From: the human T2T-CHM13v2.0 reference genome, Homo sapiens
Length of the DNA stretch: 64,000 nucleotides
Assembly (NCBI RefSeq): GCF_009914755.1
Contig: NC_060940.1
Strand: one strand, 5' to 3'
A program made the translations under genes and the position numbers. The notes beneath the pieces were generated by a model, which searched no databases, was not told the DNA's origin, and worked only from the letters and a program-made list of their open reading frames with translations. This document shows positions 7,369 through 52,439 of the stretch, in pieces. The number at the start of each line of letters is the position of its first letter. Positions within the stretch are counted from its first letter, which is position 1.

Positions 7369-7457
7369 CCCCACAAGTTATTACAATCCCCACAAGTTAT
7401 TACTCATCCCCACAAGTTATTACAATCATTAACTTGTAGGCACCTAATAACATAGCT
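7369..7457 (+). repeat. Triplicated ~19-20 bp junction plus 44-bp exact copy of 8967-9010
   Basis: ccccacaagttattac occurs three times. 7414-7457 equals 8967-9010 at 44/44. Confidence 0.95.
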
Positions 7458-8439
7458 CCAGTGGGAAGAGATGGTGCAGTGTCTTCACTGTTTACCACTT
7501 CCTAACCATCAGGACTGACATCCTAAGGACCTGCCCGTGGGAGGGATGTGGGAGAGGAGACCACTTTGGATTCTTCTCCATGTCCTGACCTACATCCTGT
7601 GAAATCATTGTTTATTTAAATTCTTCCCCAGAAGATACTCAGGATGGAGTAGTTATTCACGGCATCATTTGCAGCTGTCAGAGTCCTGAACCCAGGGAAT
7701 TTTGAAGGAAACTCAGAAGACACAAAAGTGCAGTCCCTGTCAGATATAATCTTATGCCTCTTGATTTATATATAGGAAGACATGGGGGGCATCATCCGAA
7801 TTTCTGTCTCACAGCTGTTGCTTGAGATGCCACCATTGGTGACTCCTTCCTTACAACACATGTGCCTGGAGAAGGATGTGGGGTAGTGAAGCTCAAGACC
7901 CTTAGATGAGGGGATGAGTTTGCCAGACTGGAGAAGCCAGGTCAATATGGAAATAGGAGAGATCAGAAGAAAGATAGGAGAGAGAGAGGAAAGAAAGACA
8001 GACAGTATAACGAAGAAGGGCAACAAAAACAAACTGCACACTTTATAATTCTGATGGGGGAATGGCCATTTCACCTCTACTAGGCATCAGTCTGAAATGA
8101 GATCCTTTTGGTTACAGAGTTCTAGACCAGGACTCGTTAGTCTAAAGGGATGCAGAGAAAAAAAAAAAGACACAGCTCATACATCCAAAGATACTGCCTT
8201 TGAGTTGGTGAGAAACAGGGCACTCCTGGTATGATGCTCACCAGTGCACCTGTGTGCAGGTGTCAACACGCTTTCTACACCAGACTATGAGATCCAAGGG
8301 GGCAGGAGCCATAACTGCCTCATAAAAGGACATGCCTAGCACAGTGCATGAAACCAGAAAGAGGTTCAAACAATATTTGTTTTTAACAAACTAGTTAATG
8401 AAGAAAAAAAGAAACAAAGGAATTGAGTACAGAATATTG

Positions 8440-8620
8440 TCACTGTGCAGTGATTTGGGGCAAGATATATGAGTTCTGGTCTTGTTTCTGCCATTATGAG
8501 TATTTTTGAGTGAGGAGACCTAGGCAAGTCACACCAACCTCTCTGGTCTTCAGTTTTCTCACTTGTAAAAAGGGGATTATCATTTTCCCAATCCACAGGG
8601 ATATAATGGCAGTCCAACTG
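8440..8620 (+). mobile_element. MIR SINE
   Basis: gacctaggcaagtcac...cagttttctcacttgtaaaaaggggattat. Confidence 0.65.
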
Positions 8621-8959
8621 CTTAGTAAGCTCTCAGAGACTAATAAGGAAGAAATAAGAGAAATAGTAAAAATAAAAGACAGTGAGGGAGAAGCACTGCT
8701 GAGCAGTGTTATCAGGTGGGCTTCTCTGCAATTTTACTCTCTCAGCAGTTTGAGATCTTACTGGAGTCTTTCTAGCTCAGATCCTCTTTACAGACCTTTT
8801 ACATCAGAAATTGCAAGACCTGGAAAATTAACTGGCTTAAAGCCATCAAAGAAATTGTCTAGTTGAGAGGGATTTAGATTGCAACTCTTCCCCTATGGTA
8901 CAAAGCCCTGTGTTGTAAGGGGGGAAAAGGGAAATATTTACAACCAGATGGGGAAAACG

Positions 8960-9090
8960 TTGCAAGAAGTTATTACAATCATTAACTTGTAGGCACCTAA
9001 TAACATAGCTTCAAAATACATAAAGCAAAGACTAACAGAAAAATAAGGAGAAATAGAAAACCGTATACTCACAGTGAGATGATTTTAACA
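8960..9090 (+). mobile_element. Isolated L1M ORF2 endonuclease-region fragment
   Basis: gcacctaataacatagcttcaaaatacataaagcaaa...ggagaaataga corresponds to the L1 APN..ASKYIKQ segment. No poly(A). Confidence 0.75.
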
Positions 9091-9589
9091 ACACAGCCCC
9101 TGCTAAATAGGGAAATCAGACTACACTTGGATGCTCCAGAGAAAGATTTTTCACGTCTGGGACTGAGGAAAATAAAAATAAAATGAGGAAAAGGAGATTC
9201 CTGGAATTTAATTTATCTGTAGAGATGAAGAATTGGCATGATCACGAAAGAGACCCAGTTCAACTCACTGTGGTTTCACCGGGATTTGGGGCCAAAGCCA
9301 AGGCTAGAAATGAAATATAATTGTGCTTGTGTTCTTTCTCTGTGAATCTCTTTCTACCTGCCCCTGTCAGGAAGGAGTACCAGGATGGGGGCAGAACTGA
9401 ACTTAAGTGTAGAAATAGCCAGGATTTGATAGCAGAGGGAAAGAGAATTTGTGACTTCATAGAAAGTCTGAGAAGGCCAAAGGAAGGCAGATCATAAGCC
9501 ACCAACTATAGATTCACTCCGAGATCCTAATTCCTCCACTCCTGGACCCCTCAGGGTCAAATCTCTACTACTATTACCACCACCTGACC

Positions 9590-9770
9590 AGTGATTACAC
9601 AGGCACTGCATAAATATGTTATACTCGTTGTCTCTCTTAATCTTCACAAAACCTATTTCAAATGGGAAGTTTTTAATACTAGTTCCATTATAGAAAAAAG
9701 GAAACAAGCTCAGAAAAATTCAGTGATTTACCTATAGTAGCACAGCTAATAAGTGACAAAGTAAATCGTA
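9590..9770 (-). mobile_element. MIR SINE
   Basis: ttaatcttcacaaaacctat...ccattatagaaaaaaggaaacaagctcaga. Confidence 0.6.
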
Positions 9771-10103
9771 AGTGGAGGAAATAGACCCACCTGGCACAGC
9801 ATAATGGCACCAGACACTCATCTTTCTAGTCTCAGGTCGGGCCTCCCCTTACCACAAGCCAGGGGTCAGCACCCCATGTTTCTAATCCATACCTCCCCCT
9901 ACATCAGTCTAGAAGACTGCAAGCAACACAGAGTGTCAACTTCTCTTGTTCTGTCCTGGATGCCCAACTCCTAGTGCTATGTCTCACCCAAAGAGAGTAT
10001 CAGGATATTTTTATTAAATTGAATTGAATAGATTGACAAAAATCATCCAAAATCTACCACACCCAAGCTCTATCCATGCAAGTGGAGGCACATGGCTACT
10101 TGA

Positions 10104-10687
<584 letters not shown>

Positions 10688-10959
10688 CTAAATCTGATTT
10701 TTAACGTGACTCTTCCTCCCACGCCCAGAGCAAGCCCCAGTTTCCCCAGGAAAACACTGTCCTGGTTCCTCTGAGCTCTGCAAAGCACACAGATAAAGTT
10801 GGGCCTTAGCATCAAGTTGCTGACGCAAAGTCCTCGTGATTACAAAACTATACGCGCAATGGAGAACAAAGAATACAATGATTAATTGAGAAGTGGGAGG
10901 AAAAGGATGCTTTTATTTTTTTAATCGCCTAGGAAATCTTTGGACACTTTAGACAAGCC

Positions 10960-11110
10960 ATGTCATTTGATCATCACAACAACACTCCCAGGAAGTATTA
11001 CTGTCCCCACATCACCTATAAGAACAATAAGACTCAGAGAAGTTAAGCTCCTTGTGCAAATCCACAGAGAGAGAAAGTGACAGACAGGATTTGAATTCAG
11101 GTCTGTCCAT
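10960..11110 (-). mobile_element. MIR SINE
   Basis: tcatttgatcatcacaacaac...gactcagagaagttaag...ggatttgaattcaggtctgt. Confidence 0.7.
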
Positions 11111-11899: not shown

Positions 11900-12110
11900 G
11901 GTCAGATGAATCGACAGTCCCACCTCATGCTAGCTGAGAGACCTCAGGCAAGTTTGTTTCTCTGTGCCTCAGTTTCCTCTTTCATGAAATGGAGAGGAAT
12001 AGTCTCTGCCCATAGGGTTGTTGTAAAGATTAAAAAGTTATTACACATCTTATGCTCAAAACAGTTCCTGGCATAGATAGGTGCTCAATTAAGCTAGTTA
12101 ATTTTATTTG
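11900..12110 (+). mobile_element. MIR SINE
   Basis: ctctgtgcctcagtttcctc...catagggttgttgtaaagattaaa...cctggcatagataggtgctcaat. Confidence 0.8.
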
Positions 12111-12350
12111 GTGATGATGATGATGACGATGATAAGATACTAATGAGAAATAAGAACAGGACTTTAGGCCAAGGCCAAGTGATTGAGAGCTTCAGGTGCT
12201 ATGGGAAGGAATGAGAAACTTCATCCCATGGGCAATAAGGGACTCTCTGTTTCTGAACGAAACTCCAGCAGACAGAAGGGCACTGGACTTGATGCAAAGG
12301 AGTCAGCTCCTCAGCATCAGCCATGTTTTGTCAGAAGGGACAAAGGATCC

Positions 12351-12708
12351 AGCTCCTGCATCATCAGCCATGCTTTGTCAGAAAGGGAAATAGACTTCCA
12401 CGTTCATGAAGCCACTGTATAGTGAGGATTCTCTGCAGCTTAGCTTTCTCCCTAACTAATTTAATTGCCAAGTGCTATGCATATGAAAGGTTTTGGGTTT
12501 ATTCGGTGCCTCCAAGCTCCCAGACTCCGTGTGATACTCATAGAGGTTATGTTGTGGTTGAGGAGACAAAGTTAATGCTAAGAAACAGAAGTGTCTCAAA
12601 AAAGCATGCAATCAAATGGTTCATCGTGGTTCTGGGGCTCAGGGAGCACGTGACATAGGCCCTCAGGGAAGGGGCAGATAAGTGTGGACCAGCATAGTCA
12701 GAGAGGGC
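12351..12708 (-). repeat. Inverted local duplicate of 15435-15790
   Basis: Hand alignment gives about 52 mismatches and 2 gaps over 358 bp (about 85%). Confidence 0.95.
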
Positions 12709-13364
12709 ACCCTCATTATTCTCAGGTGAGCCCCCCACAGCAGGTGGCAAGGCCAACTCATTCATCTCAGGCTTCTTGGGGGAGGGTGCGAAGAGATGAG
12801 CTCGACCTGACAGGACAAGTCTCCTCACCACCAAGCCCCTGTCACTGTCCCTTCTTGTGACTGATGAGCGGGTCTGTGGAATTAATGAGGAAATCTCCAG
12901 GGCTCCTGGGAATTGAGATGCATGGCAGGTCTGCTCCACAGGAAACTGCCCATCTTCCCTCTTTCTGTCCCACTCACTGGATCCCTCCATTCCTACTCAT
13001 CCCTCTCAAAACTGTTAGAAAATGGATATGGATATGCCACTGTCCCCAGAAGCCCTCCTAAGCTATCAGAGTATGCTCTGACTTACTATTCTCTTGTCTG
13101 GCCTCGGTATTGAAGAACCATCTCCTCCTTCCCCTGCCCTGTCTGATTCTTTATCAATTTGCTCCCCTCTAGCCCCCATCCATGCAGCCCTTAAATCAGC
13201 CTAACTCTCCAGCTTCATTTCTACTCCTTCACATCTTGGGGCCTCTGATTTCTTCACTCTTCCCCCTTGAACACCAGAGCCTCCTCTTCCTGTTCCTCTT
13301 ATCCTGCCCAGTCCCATCTGTCAGCATCCCACTGCAGGCTTCTTGTCCTATAGTGTCTTCTCAG

Positions 13365-14624: not shown

Positions 14625-15679
14625 TGTCTGGAGGCAGAGGAACCTGATCTCACCCTCTCTTGAGTTCTGAGCTACCATGAATAAGAAAAAGGGGCCAGTG
14701 GCTAAAGTGAATGGCCCACAGGTGAACGGCAGAAGATCTGAGGTCTGTGGCCCCACCTAGCTCTATGTCCGCTGCACTGGCTGCCTGGGAAAGTTAGGAA
14801 ATCTGAATTTTGGTTACCTCTGCTGGCCTTGGACAAGTTCATTCCCTTCTCTGGGCTTCATGCCTCCATCCTCAAAATGAGGGATCTGGACCAGATGGTC
14901 CCTAAGGAGCCCCCAGCCCTGCCTTCCAAGATGGTGTGAGTGCTTACTGTCTGCTGAGCCTGTTAGACACATTGCCTGCATGAGTGCCCAGCCTGAGTTG
15001 GTCATCCAGCCCCAGAGTTCACTCCAGGACATTCACCTCTGCTCCCTGAGTGCTGGGCAGGCCTCAGCCTCAGTGAGCCCGACATGCCATTTGGACACTG
15101 GCAATATCAGATGTGTGAGAAGGGACACCTGCCATTAGACTCCCTATCTCAGGACACAGAGAGCAATGGCGATGTGCCCTGTGGCCACACCCCCTCCTCC
15201 AGGTCACTCCTAGCTAAGAGGAATCCTGCAGCCCACTCTTCTAAGTGCACCATGCAGCCACCTCCAACAGCCACTGGCCTGAGTCCACTCTGCCATCAAA
15301 GAAGCCAAGGTAGCTGCTTACCCCACACCTGACAGAAGGCGCTATTCCATGGTTCAGCAAGGATGCCCTTCACCCCAGCTCTCCCAGTCCTCTCCAGCAG
15401 ATAAAGAACAGCTTCAGTCCACCTCTTCCAGGAAGCCTTCTCTGATTATGCTGGTCCACACTCATCTACCCCTTTCCTGAGGGCCTGTGCCACTTGCTCC
15501 CTGAGCCCCAGAAACACCATTAACCATTTGATTGCACACTCTTTTGAGACGCTGCTGCTTCTTAGCATTAACCTCGTCTCCTCAATCACAACGTAAACTC
15601 CGTGAGTACCACATAAAGCCCAGGATCTTGGAGGGACTGAATAAAACCTAAACCTTCCATATGCACGCACTTGGCAATT

Positions 15680-16463
15680 AAATTAATTAGGGGGAAAGCT
15701 AAGCTGCAGAAAATCCTCAATGTACAGATTTTCAAGAGCATGGAAGTCTATTTCTCTTTCTGGCAAAGCATGGCTGATGCTGCAGGAGCTATGCCTACAT
15801 CCCCTTGGTGCCCCATACCATTTCTGTACCCTCTGGCCCAGCTGCCCATGGCCAGCACTTGCATCTTTGCCCTTGGGCTGCCAACATTCACTCTGCTCAC
15901 AGCATGTGGAAGACTGGAGGTACCAGGGTCTGATGGGTGTCAGGATAAAACTGCCCCTGCTTCCTCACTCCCTGGCCTGCCCTAAAGCCTGTCTCACACG
16001 ATTTCCCAGATCCTCCCTATGGGATTAAGCTCTTGTCATCCACACTGTGGCTGCTTTTCCTTCTCTTTGTCCCCTCCCCACTCATCTGCCAGTGCTCCTG
16101 CCTCCCAAGCAAACTAATTCACTCAGTCCTCTTTTTAGTGCATGAACTGTACTAAGACAAGAGTGGCCCCAGGTCCCTTCCATCTTGTTGCTCTGCCCCA
16201 GCCCCCACATGTCCTCCTTCTCTGCATGGTGAAACTGTGTCCCAGGTATATCTGTGCTCCCGCTTACAGACAGGAAAACAGAAGATACTCAGGGAAGCAA
16301 TTTTCCTGTAAGTGAGTGAAGTAGAAGCTGCCCCCATCCCTTCCTTTCATATGCCTTTGGTGAGAATTTAGCTACAAGGGAGGCTGGAAACACGCCCAGT
16401 TTAAAATCTATTAATAAGGACAAGAAGAAACGATCGTGGTGGACAACATACAGTCTCTGCTAC
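15680..16463 (-). mobile_element. MLT1J-like LTR split by LTR33
   Basis: attag...gctaagctgc...gaagtctatttctct at 15680-15768. Resumes cccaggtcccttccatcttgttgctctgcc...gctacaagggaggctgg...cagtctctgctaca. Confidence 0.65.
15769..16159 (+). mobile_element. LTR33-like (ERVL) solo LTR
   Basis: tggctgatgctg start, gggattaagctc internal, ctcccaagcaaacta...actaagaca end. Confidence 0.65.
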
Positions 16464-17986: not shown

Positions 17987-18737
17987 TGTAACTGCCCTGG
18001 GTTCACCTTGCCGGCTGCCTAGACAGAGCAGATTTATCAAGACAGGGGAATTGCAATGGAGAAAGAGTAATTCATGCAGAGCTGGTTGTGCGGGAGACCG
18101 GAATTTTATTATTACTCAAATCAGTTTCCCCGAGCATTCAGGGATCAGAGTTTTTCAGATAATTTGGCAGGTAGAAGCTTGGGAAGTGGGGAGTGCTGAT
18201 TGGTCAGGCTGGAAATGGAATCATAGGGGGGTCGAAGTGAGTTTTTCTTGCTGTCTGAAGTGAGTTTTTCTTGCTGTCTTCTGTTCCTGGGTGCAATGGC
18301 AGAACTGGTTGAGCCAGATTGCCGGTCTGGGTGGTGTCAGCTGATCCATGGAGTGCAGGGTCTGCAAAATATCTCAAGCACTGGTCTTAGGGTTTACAGT
18401 AGTGATGTCATCCCCAGGAGCAATTTGGGGAGGTTCAGGCTCTTGGAGCCAGAGGCTGCATGACCCCTGAACTGTAATTTGTAATCTGTAGCTGATCTGT
18501 TAGTCCTGCAAAAGCAGACTGGTCCCCAGGAAAGAAGAGGGTCTTTTCGGGAAAGGGCTATTATCTATTTTGTTTCAGAGTCAAACCATGAACTGAATCC
18601 CTTCCCAAAGTTAGTTCAGCCTATGCCCAGGAATGAACAAGGACAGCTTAAAGGTTAGAAGCAAGATGGAGTCAGTTAGATCTGATTTCTTTCACTGTTA
18701 TAATTTCCTCAGTTATAAATTTGCAAAGGCAGTTTCA
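17987..18737 (-). mobile_element. LTR8-family (LTR8A/B) ERV1 solo LTR
   Basis: tgtaactgccc...cctagacagagcagatttatcaagacaggggaattgcaat...ttgcaaaggcagtttca. Perfect 4-bp TSD acct at 17983-17986 and 18738-18741. Internal 23-bp tandem duplication at 18234-18279. Confidence 0.9.
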
Positions 18738-19063
18738 ACCTCGCCAACTCAGTCTTTCTGTTTAATCACCATCATCTGCAGCCTTCCCTGGTACAAAGAG
18801 AGTATCAAGTCCCTTCATGAATGCATTTAGTCATTCATTTATTTAACAAATATTTATTAAGCATCTACTGCCATATGGTGCCAGGCCTTGGAGATACAGC
18901 AGGAAACAAATCCACACTGTTCCCACGTCATGTTGCCTGCAGCTCACTAGGTGAGGCAGGCAGTGAGCTGGCAAGCACAGGGTGCCCTGTGCTGCAGAAA
19001 TCAGAGTCAGATCCACATCCGGGCCTACTTACTAGCTCTGCAGCCACAGACTTACCACTTAAT

Positions 19064-20940: not shown

Positions 20941-21572
20941 CATCACTATCCAATGGGTTCTTCTTGCTCACCACACAGACAAAACCAGACAGTGGCATTG
21001 CAATAAAGAAACAGTTTAATAGACACAAGACCAGCCACACCATATGGCAGACAGAAGTATTACTCAAATCAATCTCCGAAAACTCAGAGGCTAGGGTTTT
21101 TCAATGGTTGTTTGGCAAGCCAGGGATTCTACTTCTGGGTGGGGGCCACAGGACCAGTTGGGTCAGGGCAGGTCCAGGTACAGCCATTGGTACTCAGAAA
21201 TGCAAACACCTGAAAAGACATATCAAATGGCCAATCTTAGGATCTAAGGTAGCGATGTTATCTGCAGGAGTAATTGGGAAAGCTACATATCTTGTGACTC
21301 CTGGAATAATGACTGGTAATGGTTTATGTCTACACCCTAGCAGAATTCAGCCTCCTCACATCCTCTTAACCTGGTGGCCTTTCATTAGCTTTACAAAGGT
21401 GGTTGAGTTTTGGAGAAAGCCTATTATCATTTATACTATAAACTATTTCCCAAAGTTAGCTTGGACTAAGCCCAGGAATGAGTGAAGACAGCCAGCCTAT
21501 GAGGCTAGAAGCAAGATGGAGTCAGCCATGTCAGATTTATCTTATTATCATAATTTTGCAAAAGCGATTTCA
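20941..21572 (-). mobile_element. MER39/MER49-like (MER4-group ERV1) solo LTR
   Basis: Related to LTR8 (tactcaaatc, cccaggaatga, gaagcaagatggagtcag, ttttgcaaaagcgatttca). TSD ttaa at 20937-20940 and 21573-21576. Exact family uncertain. Confidence 0.8.
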
Positions 21573-28000: not shown

Positions 28001-31000
28001 AAAAATTTATTGAAAAAAATGAAAATGAAAATACAACATAACTATATATGGGATACAGCAAAAGTAGTAATAAGAGAGGAGTTTATAGCAGTAAACACTT
28101 ATATTTAAAAAGTAGAAAGACTTTAAAGAAACAACCTAATGCACTTCAAGCAATTAGAAAAGCAAGAAAAAAAACAAAATTAATAGAAGAAAGAAATAAT
28201 AAAGATCAGAGCAGAAATAAATGAAATTCAGACGAAATAAAATTACAGATTAACAAAATGAAAAGTTACTTTTTTAAGAAGATAAAATAACAGATCTTTA
28301 GCTAAACTAAGAAAAAAAGAGAGACAACTCACATAAATAAAATCAGAAATGAAAAAGGAGACATAACAACTGAGACTACAGAAATACAAAAAGATTATAA
28401 GAAACTAGTATGAACAACTATACTCCAACAAATTGGAAAACCTAGAAGAAATGGATAAATGTCTGGACACATACAACCTATCAAGATTGAACTATGAAGA
28501 AATACAGAATCTCAATAAACCAATAATAAATAATGAGATCAAAGCCATAATAAAATGTCTCCCAACAAAGTAAAGCCCAGGACCTGATAGCTTCACTGAT
28601 GAATTCTATCCAACATTTAAAGAAGTAATAAGAATTTTTCTCAAACTCTTCAAAAAAATTGAAGAGGACAGGACACTTCCAAACTCATTCTATGAGGCCA
28701 GCATTATCCAGATATGAAAATCAAATACGGACACAATGAAAAAAGAAAACTACAGGCCATATCACTGAAGAACTTAGATGCACAAATCCTCAACAAAATA
28801 CTAGCACAAAATACATCACATTAACAGAAACAAGAACTAAAACCACTTGCTTATCTCAATAGATGTCAAAAAAGCATTTGATAAAATTCAACATCCCTTT
28901 ATGATAAAAACCCTCATCAAACTGGGTATAGAAGGAACATGCTCAAAATAATACATGCCTTATATGACGAACTCACAGTTAAGTTCATACTGAATGGGAA
29001 ACAATTAAAGGCCTTTTCCCTAAGATCTGGAATAAGACAAGTATGCCCACTTTCACCGCTTTTATTCAGTATAGTACTGAAAGCCCTGGCCGGAGTAATT
29101 AGGCAAGAGAAAGAAATAAAGGGCATTCCAACTGGAAAGAAAGAAGTCAAATTATCCTTATTCACAGATGACATGGTCTTATACTCAGGAAAACCTAAAG
29201 AATACACACACAAAAAAAACTGTTAGAATTGATAAACAAATTCAATAAATTTGCAGGATACAAAATCAACATACAAAAATCAGTAGCAATTAAATATGCC
29301 AATAGCAAACAATATGAAAAAGAGATCAAGAAAGCAATCCCATTTACATTAGCTACAAAGAATATAAAATACCTAGTAATCAATTTAACCAAATAAGTGA
29401 AAAATCTATACAGAAAACTATAAAACACTAATGAAAGAAATTGAAGCTGACACACACACACAAAGAAATATATTCCATGCTCATGGATTTAAAAAATTAA
29501 TATTGTTAAAATGACCATACTACCCAAAGCAATTTATAGATTCAATGCAATCCCTATCAAAATACCAATGATATTCTTTACAGAAATAGAAAAAAAATTC
29601 TGAAATGTATATGGAATCACAAAAGACCCTTAATAGCCAAAGCAATCCTGAGCAAAAAGAACAAAGCTGGAGGCATCATACTACCTGACTTCAAAATTTA
29701 TTTCAAAGCAATTGTAACTAAATCAGCGTGCTACTGGCATAAGAATAGACACATAGACCAATGAAACAGAGTAGAGAACACAGATATAAATTAAACACAT
29801 TTAAAGGACAATAAATGATGCTGGGAAAACTGGATATCTACATGCAGAAGAATGAAACTAGACCCCTATCTCTTACCATACACAAAAATCTAAACAAAAT
29901 GGATGAAAGACTTAAATCTAAGACCTGAAACTTTGAAACTACTAGAAGAAAACATTGGATAAACGCCACAGGACATTGGTCTGGGCAAAGATTTTTTGTA
30001 TAAGACCTCAAAAGCACAGGCAACCAAAGCAAAGATAGACAAATAGGATTAGATTAAGTTAAAAAGCTTCTGCACAGCAAAAGAAATGATCAACAAAGTG
30101 AAGAGACAACCCACAGAATGAGAAAATATTTGTAAACTCTCAACCGACAACAGATTAATAATCAGAATATATAAGGAACTCAAACAACTCAATAGCAAAT
30201 AAACAATCCAAATAAAAATGGGCAAATGATCTGAGTAGACATTTCCAAAAGAAGACATACAAATGGCCAACAAGTATATGAAAAACAATGTTCAACATCA
30301 CTAATCATCAGAGAAATGCAAATCAAAACAACAATGAGATACCATCTCACCCCAGTTAAAGTGGTTTTTATCAAAAAGACAGGAAAAAACGGATGCTGGC
30401 AAGAGTGCAGAAAACGGAGAACCCTCGTACACTGTTGATGAAAATGTAAATTAGCACAGCCATTATGGAGAACAGTTTGGAGTTTCCTCAGAAAACTAAA
30501 AATAGAAGCACCATATGATTCAGCAATTCAACTACTGGGTATATGTCCAAAACAAAGCAAATCAATATGTCAAAAAAAATCTCTGCATTCCCATATTTAT
30601 TGCAGCACTACTCACAATAGTCAAAATATGGAATCAACCTAACTGCTCAACAGTGGATAAATGGATAAAGAAAATGTGATATATACACACAATGAAATAT
30701 CTTTCAGCCATAAGAATGAAATCTTCTCATTTGCAGCAACATGGACAGAACTGGAGGTCATGATGTCAAGTGAAATAATCCAAGCACAGAAAGACAAATA
30801 TCACATGTTAAATGGGACTTAATCAAACTAAAAAGCTTCTGCACAGCAGAAGAAATAATCAACAGAGTAAATAGACAACCTACAGAATAGGAGAAAATAT
30901 TTCCAAACTATACACCTGACAAGGGACTAATATCTAGAACCTACAAGGAACTTAAACAAATAACTCTTCTGTGGGAGATAAAAAAGACAGGTAAGGGTAG

Positions 31001-32043: not shown

Positions 32044-33664
<1,621 letters not shown>

Positions 33665-35289: not shown

Positions 35290-35870
35290 TGCATATGCAA
35301 TATTTTAAATAGTCCCCTGTCCAGCATCATCCTTTGCCAGGCTTCTCTCCCTGCTCCAGCCACACCAGCCTTTGCCCTGTCTCTCCGAATATGCTGTTCC
35401 CTCTGCCTGGTACTTGATACCTTCCACTCCCTGCCCAGTTATCTCTGACTTATCCTTCAGATCTCCCCCAAGTGTCACTACTACAAGGAGTTATCATAAG
35501 AGAGGGTCTATTATAAAAGCCAGTTTGGTTCTGGTTTTTGCACCCCTTAGCCATGTGATGCCTTGTGCCACCTTGGGACTCTGCAGAGAGTCCCCACCAG
35601 CAAGAAGGCCCTTGCCAGATGCAGCCCCTCGATTTTGGACTTCCCAGTCTTCAGAACTGTCCCAGGCTTTTCTGACTCCCTTTTGAATGGTTCTCTTCAT
35701 GCTATGTGTTACTTCTGTGGTTCTAATCACGGTTGTAATTTTACATTGTTTGTGTGATTTTTTAAAAATCAGTTTTCCAGTGCTAAACTGTAGGCTTCAT
35801 GAAAACAGAGAGATTGGGCCTGTATGTTTTATCTCCAATGCCTATCAAAATACTGACACATAGACACATA
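35290..35870 (+). mobile_element. L2 fragment interrupted by an LTR-internal copy (35490-35660)
   Basis: ctccagccacaccagcct...tgctgttccctctgcctgg...tccttcagatctc...tgtcac | gcttttctgactccc. Confidence 0.7.
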
Positions 35871-36927: not shown

Positions 36928-37415
36928 TGCCATGGAGTTAATGTTTGGCCCCTCTGAAACTCATGTTGAAACCCAATCACCAATGTCGCATTATGAAGAG
37001 GTGGGACTTTTAAGACCCTCATTGGGTCATGAGGGCTATGCCTTCATAAATGGATTAATTCACTCAAGGATTAATGGATAAATGGATTGATGGGTTATCA
37101 GAGGACTGGGTTGGTTATCACAAGAGTGTGTCTATTATAAAAGCCAGTTTTGTTTTGACCAGGAAGTGCCATGTGTCACTTCTCTTCACAGCTCATTGGC
37201 CAGAACCAGTCACACATGCAATTGCTATCCATGTGATGCCCTGTGCCACCTCAGGACTCTGCAGAGAGTCTCCACCAGCAAGAAGGCCCTCACCAGATGC
37301 AACCCCTTGATTTTGAACTTCCCAACCTCCAAAACTGAAAGAAATAAATTTGTTTTCTTTATAAATTGCCCAGTCTCAGGTATTCAGTTGTAGCAACAGA
37401 AAACAGACTAAGACA
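36928..37415 (+). mobile_element. MSTD/MLT1A-like MaLR solo LTR carrying a 64-bp foreign insert
   Basis: tgccatggagttaatgt...aaactcatgttgaaac...gactctgcagagagtc...cagactaagaca. Confidence 0.85.
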
Positions 37416-38490
37416 CTGGGGGTACAATGATGAATACAGGTCTCTGTTCTTGTGGAGTTTACTGTCAGTGGATGAGACAAAGAGTAAATATGTTAGTTAG
37501 TTAGTTGCTTACTTCATTTGTTCATTCATTAAATGATAGATTGTTATTAGTGTTTAAAATAAATAGTGTGTGATGACAGAAAATAATGGGGGGGGGAGGG
37601 TGGGCAACTCTGGATAGAGTCATCAGGGAGTCCTCTCTGAGAAGGGTGAGATCTAACCTGAGACCTGAAGGATAGGAAGGAGCCAGCCATGAGACCAACC
37701 AGGCAGAGGAAATGCACAGGCAAAGACCCTGCAAAAAGAAAGAGCTTGTTGAGTCTGAGGCAGAGTAAGCAGCTCAGTGAGCTAGGGGCTGATGAGATGA
37801 GGTTCAAGAGGGAGGCAGGAGCCAGATTACACAGCAACTCAGTGATAAGTGCAACAGGAAGCCATTGAAGAACTCTGATCTGGCTGCTGCGTAAAGAATG
37901 AATTTGGGGGATACAAAGGTAGGAGTAGGGACATTAATTAGGTGACTATTCCACAAAATTTGGCAATGATGATGGAAGTTCAGACTAGGGTAGCAGGAGG
38001 GAGAAGAAAAATTGTGTGAAGATAAATCTGATATCTCAGTAGTTAAGTAACACTCAATACATACAGAGTTTATTTTTTGCCCACATGAGAGTCCAGTGTG
38101 AATTGGGAAGTCCTTCATCTTGCAGCTCTACCATTTGGAATACATGGCCTTCAAGGCCTATCAGGGAAAGAGAGAGATGAAGGAGGCACGTCATGGGTTC
38201 TTAACTGTTTTGACCAGGAAGTGTCATGTGTCACTTCTCTTCACAGCTCATTGGCCAGAACCAGTCACATGACTCCATTCTAACTGCAAAGGAGAATGGG
38301 AAATGGCGGGGAGGACATGGGATATCTCATAAGCACTTTCTGATGGAAATGGACTTACTCAAGATACCCTTTCGAGGTAGAAGTGATCTGACTTGTTGAT
38401 AGATCAGATGTAGGGATTTGGGATAGTAGTGATAAAGAAATGGGAAGAGTAAGGGATAATTCCCAGATTTCCCTCATTAGCAATTGGGTG
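37416..38490 (-). mobile_element. L2a fragment containing an MLT1J/K-like LTR piece (~38040-38340)
   Basis: cagggagtcctctctgagaagggtgagatctaacctgagacctgaagg is L2. gtcacttctcttcacagctcattggccagaaccagtcacatg...taactgcaaagg is MLT1. Confidence 0.7.
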
Positions 38491-42050: not shown

Positions 42051-43522
42051 GATACATGATACTATCACGAAGAGCAGAGTAAGACAAATACCACAAGAAA
42101 AGAAAGCAGAGAGGGTAGTTCTCTCACCTGGGATTTCCGTATGTGCTTTGCCTACCTGGAGAACTTAACATGTCCTTCAAGACCCACCTCAAGATCTGTG
42201 CATTTTAGTAAAGCCTTCTCTAACCCCTTCCCCCAGCAGAGCTGTCTCCACCCTTTGTTGGCCCCTCCTGCTGAGACATAGCATTGGCCCAACCCCAATC
42301 ACCTTGCATGATGACTGCTTCCATATCTGCCTCCCTCGCTGGGCCATGAACTCTCCTGGAGGGCAGGGACAGATTGTGCTTCAAGGCCTTCTCAGCACCA
42401 ACCCTTGTTGATGATAAAGCAGTGAGGCAGGCTTACCTAAAGGCCTCCATCCTGAAGTGACATGTGACTTCCACTCACATTCCATTGCCCGCAGCAAGTG
42501 GCATGCTTCTGGTTGCGTTCTACACCTCACACTTTGCCTGGTGAAATTCAGCTATGCCAAAACAAAACCAAAAAAAACATGGGGATGGGGACTGCCAGTT
42601 GGCTGAGTGACAAACAGGTGGCGGATGGCCAAGCCAAGTGGGCATATCATACTCACAACTGGGACGCCTGCAAAGAGGCACTTCTGGAAATGTAGGAAAG
42701 TTGTGAGTCTGGATGGTGTGGGCTATGGTGGAAGCCTTTGGGACACAGAAGGAGCCCACGCACCTTCTTCATAATTCTTCTCTTTATGTTAATTATCAGC
42801 CTGACCTTGGACAGGGCCCTTTCCCAAAAGGGTCCTCTTTCTCTCCATTGGCAAAATATTGGGCTACAAGCTTACTGTCTTGTGGTTGTAAGATTCCATG
42901 CTCTTGACAACCATGCCAGGCACCTGCCTCATCTATGTGCCAAAAATGTTATCTACCCCCTAGTTTGGGATCCTGAGAAATTTTAGCAAAATTTGCCAAA
43001 TACTATAGAGAAATAGATACTTTTCCTTTCCCATTTTTAAAAATCATCTTTTTTTCTACCCACAACAATTTTCTCCTCCTCGAATACTGAGTTCCACGAG
43101 TGAATAAGCTATGTCATCTCTAAGTTTCCAGAAATGTAGATTCCATGGATCGAGGGAAAGAAGGGATGAACCATCTTTTCCCTTTCGTCACAGGAAGCTG
43201 CAGCACATTTCCAAAGTAAGATGGGCTTCTAATTATTAAAAATAAACTCTGGCCCACAGCCTGATTTGCACATTAATGTAGCCAGCAGATGCAGACTTGC
43301 AAACATGCTCTCTGGCTCCATACTGAGACCCAGCTTCTCTGCCCATTTTTCATGCTGAGATTCTCTAAGGACAACCATTTCTGTTTGGAGAACCATGAAA
43401 TCAGCTAATTGCTCTCTCAAGGAAGGGGATGCTGCCCTAGGGCTTAAGGGGGCAATGGTTCCCTAGATTCTGACTAAGGAACTTAAGGAAGATGAAAGGA
43501 AACTTAAGATATGTAGATATGT

Positions 43523-43763
43523 TGGGAGGCCAAGGTGGGTGGATCACAAGGTCAGGAGATCAAGACCATCCTGGCTAACACAGTGAAACCCCGTCTCTAC
43601 TAAAAATACAAAAAATTATCTGGGTATGGTGGCGGGTGCCTATAGTCCCAGCTACTTGGAAGGCTGAGGCAGGAGAATGGTGTGAACCCGGGGGCAGAGC
43701 TTGCAGTGAGCCAAGACCATGCCACTGCACTCCAGCCTGGGGGAGAGAGTGAGACTCCATCTC

Positions 43764-43828
<65 letters not shown>

Positions 43829-43865
43829 TATATATACACACACATATATATATATACACATATAT
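43523..43865 (+). mobile_element. 5'-truncated AluY with long poly(A) plus (TA)n/(CA)n tail
   Basis: AluY diagnostics. 14-bp TSD atatgtagatatgt at 43509-43522 and 43866-43879. Confidence 0.95.
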
Positions 43866-43876
43866 ATATGTAGATA

Positions 43877-44395
43877 TGTATTAAGACTTTTAATATTAAG
43901 TGGCAGAAACACCAACTGATACTGGCTAATGCAGAGGAAGTGGGGTGGGGGGTTGTTGTTAATTTGTTTTGTTTTGTGTTGTTCATGTACCTGAAAAGTC
44001 TAGAATGTGGGAGATGATTACTAGTTTCAGGAATGGCTGGATCTATGTGCTTTGGCAAGCTGATTAGGAGTTTGTCTTTCTCTTTTCTAGCTCACTTTCC
44101 TCAATGTGCCCTTTTACTCTCAGGCAAACTCTTCTCAAGCTGTAACAAGATTTCATCCCCATAGGTAAATAACCCCAGTGAAGAGAAATTCTGTTTCCTA
44201 CTAGTTCCCACAAAAGTATCAGAAATGACCCTTGTACAATTTAAATCACATGCTCAGTCCTCAACCAATCATTGCAGCTTTGGGATAGAATACATTAACT
44301 GATCAGATCAGAGCACATGGAAGTAGGGTTGAGGTCCACCCCACTCACATCTCATGAACTAAGAGTACAAAGGGGTAGTTCCCCAAAGAAAAATC
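43877..44395 (-). mobile_element. MLT1K-like LTR
   Basis: tgtattaagacttt...agtggcagaaacaccaact...tttcaggaatggctggatc...aaccaatca...gttccccaaagaaaaatc. Confidence 0.65.
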
Positions 44396-48200: not shown

Positions 48201-49469
48201 AAAGAAACCATTTATAAATGTAGCACTTTATTTTCTACAAACCATTTTCACATCCATTCCCCTATTCCCTCCATGTAATCTTCTCATCAACCCCAGGCAG
48301 TAGGAAGATCAGGATTATTGTACGAATGAGTAAACTGCGAGAGATCAGAATGAGGGAGCGACTCCCAAGGTCACACACAGAGCAAGCTTTTGCCAGAGCA
48401 GGGACTAAAGCCCAGGTGTTAGGACTCCACAGCCAGTGCTCCTTATGCAATGCCTTGTTTTTCAACGTGTTATCCCTTTCTCTCTGGCATTACAGAGATC
48501 CCCAGGGGCACAGTAAATGTCAGCTTCCTCAATTCTCACCACATTAATCTCTTTTGCATACCAAAATTCTGCCTAAGATTTCATTGAAAAGTTTGTGAAT
48601 TACTGATGTTACAAATGCTAAAAATATGCTAAAACAAACATACATATCCAGTAGCTTCTCTTTTCCTTTGCATAGCTTTGTGGTATAATTTGGGAGACAT
48701 TAGAGTCCAATTTTCACTCTGGGCTGAAAACAGTTATATCTGTTTGAAACAGTGCAGGCTCCAGGCACCAGCTATTATACCAGAGTACACAGAACAGAAA
48801 GACAGGCCGGAAAGGAAGGGCTTTAACCACAGTGTGATGTCAGCCTAGTCATTCTCCCTCTCTGAGACTCAGTTTCCCCATCTTTCATACAAGGAGCCTG
48901 GACCAGATAAGCTTTAACTGAGTATCCAGTAAGAGGGTCTAGAGCTGAAGGGGCAGTATTCATCTTCTTCTGAAACCTCCCATATGAGCATTATCAGCCC
49001 AGGTATCCCACCTGAGGATTCTCTTTCCAGGGAAAAATCGCAAGTCATTGAGGTGAAGGGGACTCACCTCCATGCAGAGAAGTGACCAAGACCTCCAGGA
49101 TAAATCATCTTCCATTTCCTGTCCAAGGAGACTTCAAGGGATCTGACAACCTCTCTGTATTACTTATGGGCTAAGAAATTGTATTGTGAAGACTTGGGTC
49201 CCAGTCCTGGTTCCATCAATAGCTGACAGTACGACTCTGAACAAGACCCCTCTCCTCCAGGGACTTTTTGCCTCACCCATAAAATGGAGTTAATGGCCCC
49301 TGGTGACCTCCTGGATTGTTGAGAAGATCTAATGAAGTAAAAGGTAAGAACATGCTTTGAACAGAATAAACTCTCTACCACCATTGGGGGCTCTCATTTT
49401 TGGGGAGAGGGAAGCCAGGGGCATCTTCTAGTCCCTGCAGTGCGGTCCAACCTTTTTTCCCCATCCCTG

Positions 49470-49501
49470 TGCAGTGCCACTCAGACCACTAGATGGCGGT
49501 A
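49470..49501 (+). promoter_or_regulatory. CTCF binding site, core plus upstream (ZF9-11) module
   Basis: tgcagtgcc-actca-gaccactagatggcggta. The core fully matches CCASYAGRKGGCRS and the TGCAG module is at canonical spacing. Confidence 0.8.
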
Positions 49502-50129
49502 GCTGTCACTTGCCAATTCTGGAAAAAAGGGTGTGGGAGAGCCAGGGGGCCGTCTGCTTTAGGAAAACTAGGCCAAAGCCAGCCCGTTACATCACTTCTG
49601 ATCCAAGCAGCCAGTTCAGTCTAGATTTTTCCTTACTGCAGGCGACAATGCAAAAAAACTTCCAGGCTCTTGCGCATTTCAACGCTAACTGTTCGGCCTG
49701 AAAAATGTCCTTAACTCCCAGGGATTGGTCCTGCAGGCTCTGCCCCATCTTCCCTGGGTACAGCTTCTCTACTTAGGGCCTCCTACTGCCCTCTCCAGAT
49801 ACCCCACCCTCAGCCATACTTGAAGTGAATTTCTCGTCCTGCCTTTAAATCTCAATCTCATTCATCAGGCACTTAATGATATCTACTTGTGTGCAAAGGC
49901 CTACACCAGGGCCCATGCTGGAGTAAGTGGGACCCAGACCCTATACTCAAGGGAAAGAAGGGGGACTACAAACTACATGAGTTCAAATCCGCCTCTGCTT
50001 CTCACTTGCTATATGCGTGATTTGAACCGGTCACTCAAGTTTTCTCTTCTTCAACTTTCTTCATTTTAAAATGGGGTTAATAATAGGCTTGTTTTATTGT
50101 TAAATGAACTCATACTGGCCAGTTCTTTG

Positions 50130-50327
50130 GCTTGGAATGGGGTCTAGCACTTCATAAGCAATAATCATTTATTGAGCACCTATTAGGGGTAGGTACATTA
50201 TCTGATTTAATGCCCAAATTAATAGCTTGGAATGGGGTCTAGCACTTCATAAGCAATAATCATTTATTGAGCACCTATTAGGGGTAGGTACATTATCTGA
50301 TTTAATGCCCATATTAATGGCTTGGAA
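50130..50327. repeat. 95-bp tandem duplication
   Basis: gcttggaa recurs at 50130, 50225 and 50320. The two units are 93/95 identical. Confidence 0.97.
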
Positions 50328-50659
50328 AAGTTAAGCAATTTGCACAAGGTTGTTCAGTGAATCAGAAGCAAAGTTAGAATTTGAACCTGGTCTGTCTGAC
50401 TCCAGGAGCGCTGCCTTCAGCTGTTCTTACAGAAAGTGAGCAGCTAAACAAAGGTACCAAGGGACCAGCAGACCTGCAGACTATACGGCCAGTCCCAGCA
50501 GCACAGCTGCAAATTGGGCATCCTAAATCTGCCATTCGGGTCTCAGTGATCCTGTTCTGGATTTAGCTCTAGCACTAACTGGGGACTAACGCTAACCTCT
50601 AGCACTAACCCCTCCTTGGGACTCAATTTATTCACCTATAAACAAGGCAGCTTGATAGA

Positions 50660-50835
50660 TCAGTATTTTCCACACATGTCTAGTTGTCAAAATCATCTGC
50701 GGTCTTTCTTGAAAGTATGGAATTCTGGACTCCACGTCAGGTCTGCTAAAATAGAATCTCCAGGGGAAGGGTCTGCAGATCTATTTTTAACAAGCGATTC
50801 AGAAAACTCTTAGGACCAGGAAAGATAGGAAAGCA
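50660..50835. mobile_element. MER5-family DNA transposon
   Basis: aaatcatctg...aattctggactccac...agaatctccagggg...tatttttaacaagc. Confidence 0.65.
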
Positions 50836-51676
50836 TCCTAGGCCCAGATGATCTTAGCAATTCTCCCAGCTCCTACTATCACTCAGTCAGGCTCTTGATC
50901 GGCCTCCCTACAGACCCATCATGAACACTACAGTCCCTCTCCCTATGCCCCAGGATTTGACCCTCCTGAGCAATTCCCCACCCTGCATGGATTTGATAGC
51001 TCCTTCCTTCCTGTAAGGCACTTAGGCTCTTAAGGGAGGTAAAGCTATTTAAATAATGAATGGAATTTACAGTAGCATTCGGAATTCACTTAAGCAATAG
51101 AAACATGATTGCAGTAAAGTCCCTTAAAAATCTTTTCATCGGGTTAGAAAGAAGATAAAGTAACTTCTCCCTTGACTTTCCTAATATGCAAACCAGGATG
51201 TTTTGACAAGACTCAATTCTAAATTTCTGCAATGTCCATTTGGAAGGTGTAATGTTCACTGTCAGAATAACAGTGCCCTGCTGCCCCAGTCTGATATACC
51301 CAGAAGCTGTAGGTCAAACCACATTTCAGGCCAAGGGCAGGGTTACCAGCTCCTGTGTCCTGGTGGGGAGCCTTGTGAAAAAAAAATGGGAAAGAAGCTG
51401 CAAGGCACAAAGCCAGCCCCAGCTCCATTCTATCAGTTTGTACTATAAATCCTGTCGATCCTTGTTCTTCCTGTTTGCAGAGTCATCAAACAGCAAAACT
51501 GAGCAATATTGGCTGCCCATTTTTCCTCCTTTCTGTTGCAGTCTCTCAGTTCCTATGAGCAGCTGACCTCACTAACCTGAAACATACCTGAAATTCTCAC
51601 TGTTAGGCCATGCCCTTGGGCTTAGGGAATGTTTTCTGGAAGAGTGTGTACCTTGGGTTGAGTTTTGGAAGATTGG

Positions 51677-52060
51677 TGTATCAGTCAGCTATTGCCATAA
51701 GAATGCCACATAACAAAGCACCCCAGTACTCAGTGCTTACAGCATTCAGTTATTCTCACTCATACATATGTGGGTTAACGGGGGCAGCTCTGCTGATCTC
51801 ACTTGGGCTCAGCTGAGTTTGGCTCTGGCCTTTGGTTTGATCCAGGTACTCCAGGCATCCCTCAGTTCTTGGACCACCAGGTTAGCCAAGACGTGTTTCT
51901 CTTATTGTGATGGAAGAAGCCCAAGAGGACAAGCTCACCACTCAAGTCTATTTCAAGCTGCTGCTGACTTCACATCTGCTCACATCCCATTGACCAGAGC
52001 AAAGGGCAATGACATACAATCTGCCCAATGTGAGGCCAAAGCAAGTCACAGAACACAGGA
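51677..52060 (-). mobile_element. MLT1I/J-like LTR
   Basis: tgtatcagtcagctattgcc...gcagctctgctgatct...cacatctgctcacatcccattgaccagagcaa. Confidence 0.7.
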
Positions 52061-52439
52061 GGGGCATGGGAAGGTTAAAATGGAAAGAGAGCCAAGTACT
52101 TGGGGCCACTCCCTGCAGGTGGGATGACACCTGGGAGGGACCCCGGGGAAGTTAGAGCTGGGCTTCATTTAGAATTCACTTAAGCAATAGAAAAACAGTT
52201 GCAGTAATGTCACACCAGGTTGTTTGCATCAAACAAATCACAATTTCAGCAAAAGATCAGATGGAGAAGAGACACTGAGTGATCATCTTGTCCCACCCCC
52301 TCAGCTTCCTGATAGCCTGATACGAAAAGGGGCTTATGGAAGGTCATTAGGCAAGTAAGCAGCAGAATGAAGAATATTATCTGTCCTTAGGCAATTTTCC
52401 CATCTGAGATGCTCCTAAACAGTCCAGGGAATTAAAATT

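What the first reader, a model, noticed from the sequence alone, without database searches (positions are those of the whole stretch)
7369..52211. Recurrent, polarity-biased local copy-paste: six short templated duplications 1-3 kb from their donors
Seen (acceptor<-donor): 7414-7457<-8967-9010 (direct, offset 1553, 100%); 12351-12708<-15435-15790 (inverted, gap ~2.7 kb, ~85%); 30809-30961<-32287-32438 (direct, 1478, ~88%); 35490-35660<-37114-37338 (direct, 1624, ~87%); 37151-37214<-38206-38269 (direct, 1055, 63/64). A sixth pair, 51076-51121/52166-52211 (offset 1090), has unknown polarity. None has a poly(A) or TSD. Polarity is read from which copy interrupts a host element and which stays in a continuous context. 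Known: templated insertions from polymerase theta end joining, aborted SDSA or FoSTeS/MMBIR are an established class, so the event type is not new. Inference: the unusual parts are the narrow 1.0-1.6 kb offset of the direct events, the wide spread of ages, and the donor lying to the right in 5 of 5 readable cases. That has a two-sided chance of 1/16, so it is only suggestive. It could reflect a stable germline fork or transcription direction biasing template choice.
Basis: partly seen in the sequence, partly recalled or inferred. Interest (0 to 1): 0.8.

Follow-up and report, generated by a model that had tools for sequence, protein, structure and literature searches.

The report
Short local copy-paste repair scars
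Four of the six repeated stretches are real short copies of DNA lying 1-3 kb away, a known by-product of DNA repair in primate genomes, and the other two are ordinary transposon copies, so the finding is real but mostly ordinary.

Summary
All six pairs exist at the stated coordinates. Whole-genome searches split them into two groups.

Four are locus-specific local duplications:
- 7414-7460 from 8967-9013 (46/47).
- 37151-37214 from 38206-38269 (63/64).
- 12351-12713 / 15430-15790 (inverted, 85%).
- 51076-51121 / 52166-52211 (39/46).

Two are unlinked-looking family copies: an L1 ORF2 piece and a MaLR-type LTR piece. Their local partner is no closer than copies on other chromosomes.

The real events match a published class, the "repair-mediated duplications" of Pace et al. 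2009 (donor under 5 kb away, distance peak about 1,200 bp, no poly(A)), also called "doublets". So the 1.0-1.6 kb offset is the genome-wide norm.

Polarity can be read in three events. In all three the donor lies to the right, which is not significant (p=0.25).

Two acceptors carry a tandem repeat that straddles the junction. This indicates aborted and restarted copying.

In 200 kb of random genome the same pipeline found one verified and three unverified local pairs. Enrichment in the window is therefore about 3-10-fold, p 0.04-0.23, before correcting for post hoc selection of the window.

Primate outgroups, fork direction and the paper's supplement could not be examined.

The parts
7369..7460 (+). 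Acceptor of event 1. It holds a 47-nt copy (7414-7460) of an L1 piece that lies 1,553 bp to the right. The copy is preceded by a 19-nt unit repeated 3.1 times (7369-7427). Each unit is 5-6 nt of acceptor flank plus the first 14-15 nt of the copy.
   Evidence: 46/47 identity. TRF reports period 19, 3.1 copies. The flanks 7280-7580 are genome-unique: 2 of 2 candidates were the region itself and the donor.
8967..9013 (+). Donor of event 1, inside an old L1 endonuclease-coding fragment.
   Evidence: 362 genome candidates, 40 scored. Family matches run from query 141-147 to 236-271, which is 40-77 nt past the donor's right edge. A relative (L017) encodes L1 ORF2p endonuclease residues 100-151, E 5e-6.
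12295..12713 (+). Acceptor of event 2. It is a 363-nt inverted copy (12351-12713). Its left junction is duplicated in tandem (12295-12388, 47-nt unit repeated twice). The unit is 10 nt of flank plus the first 37 nt of the copy.
   Evidence: 84.6% identity to 15430-15790 on the opposite strand. TRF reports period 47, 2.0 copies, 87% matches. The partial copy 12305-12345 starts at the same template position as the full copy: score 29 against a shuffle maximum of 13.
15430..15790 (-). Donor of event 2. It is a single copy with no junction repeat.
   Evidence: Only two places in the genome hold this sequence. There is no tandem partial copy at its edge.
37151..37214 (+). Acceptor of event 5. A 64-nt insert interrupts a MaLR-type LTR copy (about 36928-37416) and replaces roughly 10-20 nt of it.
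   Evidence: 63/64 identity to 38206-38269. Six of 7 unlinked LTR relatives, and copy A, lack 39-64 nt here; the 7th relative aligned only from 37229 on. The 64 nt match relatives of the donor family only, and none of the 7 LTR relatives. The C13 copy has a gap of 24 nt against 78 nt in the window.
38206..38269 (+). Donor of event 5, inside an old interspersed repeat that I could not name.
   Evidence: 69 candidates at 68-89% identity. Several span both edges, for example query 83-255, 94-256 and 62-293 against the donor at 157-220.
51076..51121 (+). Left copy of event 6. An old short direct duplicate of unknown polarity.
   Evidence: 39/46 identity with a 22-nt exact core. The region 51000-51220 found only itself in the genome.
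52166..52211 (+). Right copy of event 6.
   Evidence: The region 52000-52400 found only itself in the genome.
30809..30961 (+). NOT a local copy.
   Evidence: It encodes L1 ORF2p residues 1010-1034, E 4e-8. There are 7,700 candidates, and 13 unlinked places outscore the local partner. It shares 0 exclusive variants with the partner in 110 columns, and an unlinked copy (L022) is closer: 89.5% against 87.5%.
35490..35659 (+). NOT shown to be a local copy.
   Evidence: 15 unlinked places outscore it as a match to the partner. It is closer to the unlinked copy L005 (86.0%) than to the partner (83.5%). It shares 0 exclusive variants with the partner in 109 columns.

Best explanation
Four of the six pairs are scars of templated repair. 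Two are young (about 98% identity) and two are old (about 85%).

The proposed mechanism is this. A broken or stalled 3' end in this region primed on an ectopic template 1-3 kb away on the same chromosome or its sister chromatid. It copied 46-363 nt, let go, and was rejoined at the original site with little or no homology.

This is the published class of proximal 'repair-mediated duplications', also called 'doublets'. In events 1 and 2 copying was aborted and restarted, which left a tandem repeat of the junction (flank plus the start of the copy).

The remaining two pairs are independent copies of L1 and of a MaLR-type LTR.

What is shown:
- the pairs exist;
- they are genome-unique, or far closer to each other than to other family members;
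- the polarity of three events;
- the junction repeats.

What is inferred:
- The enzymology. My odds are about 50% for double-strand-break repair by SDSA-like ectopic synthesis or polymerase-theta-type end joining, and about 30% for replicative template switching with return to the original template (FoSTeS/MMBIR-like).
- The ages. By divergence, roughly 7-10 Myr for the young events and 70-80 Myr for the old ones, with wide error.
For: Locus specificity:
- Searches found only the region itself, or only the pair, in the whole genome.
- Pairs 1 and 5 are 98% identical to their local donors. Other family members are 68-89% identical, apart from two short 94-98% matches.

Polarity:
- Acceptor 1 is an isolated L1-derived 47-mer in unique DNA.
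- Acceptor 5 interrupts an LTR whose relatives lack the insert.
- Acceptor 2 carries a partial extra copy that starts at the same template position as the full copy.

Junction repeats:
- Tandem arrays cover about 1.6% of the window (my sum of the rows). Two of six junctions falling inside arrays has a chance of about 0.003 by my arithmetic.

Class match:
- Pace et al. 2009 (PMC2671141, sections 6 and 7, read in full) describe 824 proximal duplications.
- These average 162 bp, and their donor-acceptor distances peak near 1,200 bp.
- None of the 39 inspected had a poly(A) tail.
- Their junctions show microhomology, deletion or filler.

Control sample:
- 20 random 10-kb pieces yielded local pairs with the same geometry: direct, offsets 1,008-2,898 bp.
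- One of them was verified as genome-unique.
Against: - No outgroup genome was available, so no empty site was seen for any event. Ages rest on 0-1 mismatches for the young events.
- Junction microhomology cannot be fixed without the pre-insertion sequence. By eye it is 0-3 nt.
- Event 6 is short and old (39/46). Its status as a duplication rests on a 22-nt exact core and on both copies being genome-unique.
- Pair 4 cannot be strictly excluded as a very old local copy, or as the two LTRs of one provirus. At about 85% identity the test has little power.
- The genome search scores only the best 40 candidates and skips very common words. 'Unique' therefore means 'no other candidate found'.
Confidence: 0.8

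Rival explanations
1. This window is a hotspot of recurrent templated copying with a fixed polarity: the donor is always to the right, because a stable germline fork or transcription direction biases template choice.
For: - The donor lies to the right in 3 of 3 polarised events.
- In events 1 and 2 the stutter sits at the left junction, so synthesis ran rightward on the + strand, towards the donor.
- Density: 4 verified events in 60-64 kb, against 1 verified plus 3 unverified or ambiguous in 200 kb of random genome. The rate ratio is 3.3-10 and the binomial p is 0.04-0.14.
- For pairs of at least 95% identity the count is 2 against 0, p = 0.053.
- The window's density is about 100 times the density extrapolated from the Pace et al. 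catalogue. That figure is my arithmetic from section 6 of the paper.
Against: - 3 of 3 has a two-sided p of 0.25.
- The window was picked post hoc out of a very large scan, which the p values above ignore.
- The Pace catalogue is admittedly conservative: inserts of at least 50 bp, inside annotated transposons only.
- The events span about 0-80 Myr, so they do not form a burst.
- No fork-direction or germline transcription data were available.
Confidence: 0.12
2. Replicative template switching (FoSTeS/MMBIR-like) produced the events, rather than break repair. In this model the nascent strand stalled at one site and jumped to the donor. It returned 5-10 nt upstream of where it had left, stalled again and jumped again. 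This would explain why each stutter unit contains acceptor flank.
For: - The stutter units contain acceptor flank plus the start of the copy, in both event 1 and event 2.
- Event 2 is inverted, as expected for a switch to the other strand at a fork.
Against: - Iterative polymerase-theta-type synthesis that uses both broken ends as templates can also give flank-containing repeats (established knowledge, not tested here).
- Pace et al. attribute the class to SDSA (sections 6 and 7).
- Event 5 has no such repeat and carries a net deletion, which is typical of end joining.
Confidence: 0.3
3. All six pairs are merely copies of interspersed repeat families that happen to lie close together, and there was no local copying.
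For: This is true for pairs 3 and 4. Donors 1 and 5 do lie inside old repeats.
Against: - Pairs 2 and 6 have no other copy in the genome.
- Pairs 1 and 5 are 98% identical to each other, against 68-89% to family members. Their acceptors are 47- and 64-nt fragments with unique or foreign flanks.
Confidence: 0.03

Closest known systems
Proximal repair-mediated duplications (RDs), Pace, Sen, Batzer & Feschotte 2009, PLoS Genet 5:e1000469 (PMC2671141; abstract and sections 6, 7, 8, 11 and 14 read)
   Same: - The sequence occurs at only one other place in the genome, less than 5 kb away on the same chromosome.
- The size range matches: 46-363 nt here, against a mean of 162 and a maximum of 619 bp.
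- The distance mode is about 1.2 kb.
- There is no poly(A), and a small deletion or filler sits at the junction.
- Ages range from human-lineage to pre-primate.
- Event 5 (64 nt inside a transposon) meets their pipeline criteria as far as I could test them.
   Different: - Events 1, 2 and 6 have acceptors in unique DNA, and event 1 is under 50 nt. Their transposon-based pipeline could not have found these.
- Junction-straddling tandem repeats are not among the breakpoint categories in their Table 1.
- Their main text does not analyse donor side: a word search found 'upstream' once and 'downstream' not at all.
- I could not open their Table S1, so I cannot say whether event 5 is listed.
'Doublets', Thomas et al. 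2004, PNAS 101:10349 (not held; known to me from Pace et al. section 14 and from recall)
   Same: They are short paired duplications close together. As I recall the abstract, they are exact matches of 25-100 bp, mostly on the same strand, with distances concentrated near 1 kb. Events 1 and 5 have exact cores of 44 and 45 nt, 1,553 and 1,055 bp apart and direct.
   Different: Doublets are defined by exact matching without polarity. Event 2 (inverted, 363 nt, 85%) and event 6 (22-nt core) fall outside that definition as I recall it.
Polymerase-theta-mediated end joining, templated insertions (established knowledge; the papers were seen only as listings)
   Same: Priming on little or no homology, repeated abort-and-restart synthesis giving stutters, and a net deletion at the junction.
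   Different: Typical TMEJ inserts are a few to tens of nucleotides, copied from within tens of bases of the break (recalled). Here 46-363 nt were copied from 1-3 kb away.
Templated sequence insertion polymorphisms, class 2 (PMC5110952; title and start of abstract only)
   Same: A stretch copied from elsewhere in the genome is inserted at a break without L1 hallmarks.
   Different: By the abstract, TSIP donors are distant genomic regions. Here the donors are 1-3 kb away in cis.
Short-range template switches, Walker, Loytynoja & Goldman 2021 (PMC7954356; listing and start of abstract only)
   Same: A transient switch of a polymerase to a nearby alternative template. Event 2 is inverted, as such switches are.
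   Different: As I recall, those events span tens of bases and replace sequence in place. Event 2 copies 363 nt from 2.7 kb away and adds sequence.

Membership tests
Proximal repair-mediated duplication (Pace et al. 2009) | [quoted passage not shown] | tested here: met
   - Pairs 2 and 6: no other candidate was found.
- Pairs 1 and 5: one partner at 98% identity, with other family members at 68-89%, plus two short 94-98% matches to donor 1's neighbourhood.
- Not met for pairs 3 and 4, which had 7,700 and 1,653 candidates.
Proximal repair-mediated duplication (Pace et al. 2009) | Donor and acceptor lie on the same chromosome, more than 50 bp and less than 5 kb apart. | tested here: met
   The offsets are 1553, 3079, 1055 and 1090 bp.
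Proximal repair-mediated duplication (Pace et al. 2009) | The acceptor interrupts an annotated transposable element with an insert of at least 50 bp (a pipeline criterion). | tested here: inconclusive
   Event 5 meets it: 64 nt inside an LTR copy whose relatives lack the insert. Events 1, 2 and 6 have acceptors in unique DNA. No RepeatMasker annotation was available.
Proximal repair-mediated duplication (Pace et al. 2009) | No poly(A/T) tail at the insert end. Junctions show microhomology, deletion or filler. | tested here: met
   - No A/T run is present at the ends of acceptors 1 and 5.
- Event 5 has a net deletion of about 10-20 nt of LTR.
- Event 2 has a 5-nt spacer between the aborted copy and the full copy.
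- Exact microhomology cannot be resolved without an empty site.
Proximal repair-mediated duplication (Pace et al. 2009) | An empty acceptor site in an outgroup species, with the donor present. | not testable with these tools
Doublets (Thomas et al. 2004; definition recalled) | A pair of exact matches of 25-100 bp, nearby (about 1 kb) and on the same strand. | tested here: met
   Events 1 and 5 have exact cores of 44 and 45 nt, direct, 1,553 and 1,055 bp apart. Events 2 and 6 do not meet it: no exact run of 20 nt or more for event 2, and 22 nt for event 6.
L1-mediated retroposition or transduction | A 3' poly(A) tail and a flanking target-site duplication. | tested here: not met
   Neither is present at acceptors 1 and 5. 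Acceptor 1 is an internal endonuclease-coding piece of L1, not a 3' end.
Two LTRs of one provirus (considered for pair 4) | The two LTRs share element-specific variants and flank an internal region. | tested here: not met
   They share 0 exclusive variants in 109 columns, and copy A is closer to an unlinked copy. The 1.27 kb between them matched nothing next to 7 relatives' LTRs. The test is weak, because those relatives may be solo LTRs.
FoSTeS/MMBIR template switching | Iterative template switches joined at microhomology. | tested here: inconclusive
   Restarted copying is visible in events 1 and 2. That fits iterative switching, but it does not exclude iterative end-joining synthesis.

The most novel reading that the evidence does not exclude
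The window is a long-lived hotspot where a recurrent stall or break repeatedly triggers copying from a template 1-3 kb downstream of the direction of synthesis. The donor is to the right in 3 of 3 events. The stutter is at the left junction in 2 of 2 events that have one. If so, donor side would record germline fork or transcription polarity, and junction-straddling stutters would give the direction of the nascent strand for ancient events.
Probability: 0.12. Interest if true: 0.6.

Novelty: new member of a known kind. Interest (0 to 1): 0.3.

Why it matters
Short proximal duplications are an under-catalogued source of new sequence in primate genomes.

This window shows that three of four such events sit in unique DNA, where the published transposon-based catalogue cannot see them. 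The true genome-wide number is therefore probably several-fold higher than the 824 reported.

The junction-straddling stutters give a sequence-only way to polarise old events, and to read the direction of synthesis, without outgroups.

As a single locus, however, it is an ordinary example of a known process.

Tried and rejected
- Larger random control. A list of 200 random 10-kb pieces was fixed in advance, but only the first 20 could be fetched. The density test is therefore weak.
- Thomas et al. 2004: not held.
- Naming donor 1's family from the window itself. The in-frame translation has 5 stops, and its 41-aa open stretch found nothing in the PDB at E up to 10. The L1 assignment rests on a relative, L017.
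- Naming the repeat that holds donor 5: no repeat library was available, so it is left unnamed.
- Polarity of event 6: no junction repeat or interrupted element was found.
- Polarity of event 2 from interrupted repeats: neither arm touches a repeat. Polarity came from the junction repeat instead.
- The 14 extra 3-kb loci brought in by searches were scanned for local pairs. I read the pairs found there as Alu-, L1- or LTR-type pairs. I did not count them, because those loci were chosen by homology.
- A literature search for 'doublets' and related phrases returned almost only single-cell papers.
- A seventh local pair, 18602-18706 / 21447-21556 (direct, 74.5%, offset 2845), has no match in the 264-kb pool. 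NCBI masks 18565-18740, so it may be an old repeat. It is left unresolved and not counted.

Full report
**Observation**

An independent self-BLAST of the window recovered each of them:
- Pair 1, 7414-7460 / 8967-9013: 46/47, with 44 exact.
- Pair 2, 12351-12713 / 15430-15790: inverted, 84.6% over 363 nt.
- Pair 3, 30809-30961 / 32287-32438: 88.2% over 153 nt.
- Pair 4, 35490-35533 and 35548-35659 / 37114-37157 and 37226-37337: 88.6% and 87.5%.
- Pair 5, 37151-37214 / 38206-38269: 63/64.
- Pair 6, 51076-51121 / 52166-52211: 39/46, with a 22-nt exact core.

The window is human chr16, and the whole assembly could be searched.

**Which pairs are local copies**

Whole-genome searches separate the pairs into two groups.

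Pairs that are locus-specific:
- Pair 2 has no other copy anywhere: 2 of 2 candidates were the two arms. Searches with 1.4-1.5 kb around each arm gave the same result.
- For pair 6, each copy found only itself.
- Acceptor 1 lies in unique DNA. The only candidates were the region itself and the donor.
- Donor 1 lies in an old repeat family with 362 candidates, 40 of them scored. Family matches continue 40-77 nt beyond the donor's right edge, at 71-87% identity. Most begin only 1-7 nt left of the donor's start, and one extends 45 nt further left.
- A relative of that family (L017) encodes L1 ORF2p endonuclease residues 100-151, E 5e-6. The window's own open stretch gave no PDB hit.
- Acceptor 5 sits inside a MaLR-type LTR copy, about 36928-37416. 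Six of 7 unlinked relatives, and the neighbouring copy, lack 39-64 nt at exactly this place. The 7th relative aligned only to the right of the site.
- The 64 nt of acceptor 5 match only relatives of the donor's family.
- Donor 5 is embedded in an old repeat whose other copies span both of its edges.

Pairs that are not local copies:
- Pair 3 is a piece of L1 ORF2 (residues 1010-1034, E 4e-8) with 7,700 genome candidates. Thirteen unlinked places outscore the local partner.
- In an alignment of 13 copies, the two members of pair 3 share 0 private variants in 110 columns. An unlinked copy is closer, 89.5% against 87.5%.
- Pair 4 is two MaLR-type LTR fragments with 1,653 candidates. Fifteen unlinked places outscore the partner.
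- The pair 4 members share 0 private variants in 109 columns. Copy A is closer to an unlinked copy, 86.0% against 83.5%.

So four of the six pairs are local duplications and two are ordinary family copies. A very old local origin for the latter two cannot be strictly excluded at this level of divergence.

**Polarity**

- Event 1: an isolated 47-nt L1-derived piece in unique DNA must be the copy.
- Event 5: the copy interrupts an LTR.
- Event 2: neither arm touches a repeat, but the left arm carries a telling structure. Its first 37-41 nt occur twice in tandem.
  - TRF reports 12295-12388, period 47, 2.0 copies.
  - In direct alignment, 12305-12345 against 12351-12393 scores 29, against a shuffle maximum of 13.
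  - The partial copy starts at exactly the template position where the homology with the right arm starts. The right arm has no such repeat.
  - The left arm is therefore the acceptor.
- Event 6 cannot be polarised.

The donor lies to the right in 3 of 3 readable events, not 5 of 5. The two-sided p is 0.25.

**Junction anatomy**

Event 1 has the same kind of structure as event 2. It is a 19-nt unit repeated 3.1 times at 7369-7427. Each unit consists of 5-6 nt of acceptor flank plus the first 14-15 nt of the copied segment, and the last unit runs on into the full 47-nt copy.

In both events the repeated unit straddles the junction. Tandem arrays cover about 1.6% of the window (my sum of the rows). 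Two of six junctions lying inside such arrays has a chance of roughly 0.003, so I take the stutters to be part of the insertion events. They indicate aborted and restarted copying, with synthesis running rightward on the + strand.

Event 5 has no stutter. It has a net loss of roughly 10-20 nt of LTR and a possible CA slip at its right junction.

No event has a poly(A) tail or a flanking target-site duplication.

**Comparison with what is known**

Pace et al. 2009 (PMC2671141; I read the abstract and sections 6, 7, 8, 11 and 14) searched for inserts of at least 50 bp that interrupt transposons and occur at only one other place in the genome. Their findings:
- Of 1,136 duplicons, 824 lay within 5 kb of their donor and 753 within 3 kb, with a distance peak near 1,200 bp.
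- The proximal inserts had a mean length of 162 bp and a maximum of 619 bp.
- All 39 proximal junctions they inspected lacked poly(A). They showed microhomology, deletion or filler.
- Events date from human-specific to pre-primate.
- They link the class to the 'doublets' of Thomas et al. 2004. I could not open that paper and cite it only through them and from recall.

Donor side is not analysed in their main text (word search). In a listing of 12 of 101 papers, none combined templated insertions with OK-seq or replication direction. That is a limited search, not proof of absence.

**Density**

I drew 200 random 10-kb pieces in advance but could fetch only 20.

The same pipeline was applied to these pieces and to the window cut into six 10-kb pieces. 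It examined 241 pairs and flagged 9 as local.

Four were in the 200-kb control:
- L032: 196 nt, 91%, offset 1,719. Verified genome-unique.
- L041: 92 nt, 92%, offset 1,008. It lies inside a segmental duplication and looks transposon-like, so it is ambiguous.
- L033 and L040: 69% identity, unverified.

Five were in the window: the four real events, plus one block of pair 4 that the genome search shows to be a transposon copy.

All four control pairs are direct and 1.0-2.9 kb apart. With exposures of 51 and 170 kb, the rate ratio is 3.3-10 and the binomial p is 0.04-0.23, depending on which pairs are counted. For pairs of at least 95% identity the count is 2 against 0 (p = 0.053).

These p values ignore that the window was selected because of these pairs. 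A modest local enrichment is possible but not shown.

The window's density is about 100 times that extrapolated from the Pace catalogue (my arithmetic). However, three of the four events here are of kinds that catalogue could not detect.

**Verdict**

The finding is a real set of four proximal repair- or replication-templated duplications of a known class, plus two transposon look-alikes. The polarity and hotspot ideas remain untested hypotheses with weak support. The junction-straddling stutters are the most useful new detail, because they polarise old events from sequence alone.

Noticed in passing
window 50130-50327: A young tandem duplication: a 95-nt unit repeated 2.1 times at 98% identity. 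It lies 750 bp left of event 6.
   Followed up: no
window 18234-18279: An exact tandem duplication of a 23-nt unit.
   Followed up: no
It has no match in the 264-kb pool. It was not checked genome-wide. NCBI masks 18565-18740, so it may be an old repeat.
   Followed up: partly
window 1031-1391 and 6042-6402: An inverted pair, 82% over 368 nt, 5 kb apart. Five other loci in the pool match it, at up to 86.6% over 365 nt, so it is an interspersed family. From recall, it is a MaLR-type LTR.
   Followed up: partly
G000:C11:13039411-13039456 against window 8984-9029: A 46-nt stretch on another chromosome is 98% identical to the L1 fragment that served as donor 1, shifted 17 nt to the right of the donor. 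Family identity is otherwise about 80%. It could be chance among many copies, or a distant templated copy.
   Followed up: no
L032 2066-2261 and 3785-3978 (G000:C6:81383066-81384978): A control-sample example of the same class: a 196-nt direct duplicate at 91% identity, 1,719 bp apart, with sharp edges. It occurs at only these two places in the genome.
   Followed up: yes
L041 7482-7573 and 8490-8581 (G000:C22): A 92-nt direct pair about 1.0 kb apart lies inside a segmental duplication. At least 13 other copies of that duplication, on chromosomes 2, 9, 10, 11, 14, 22 and Y, carry the same pair at the same spacing. The pair therefore predates the spread of the duplication.
   Followed up: partly
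window 43792-43881: An AT/AC-rich microsatellite that is self-complementary. It adjoins an Alu-like copy, near the RefSeq enhancer 43126-43627.
   Followed up: no
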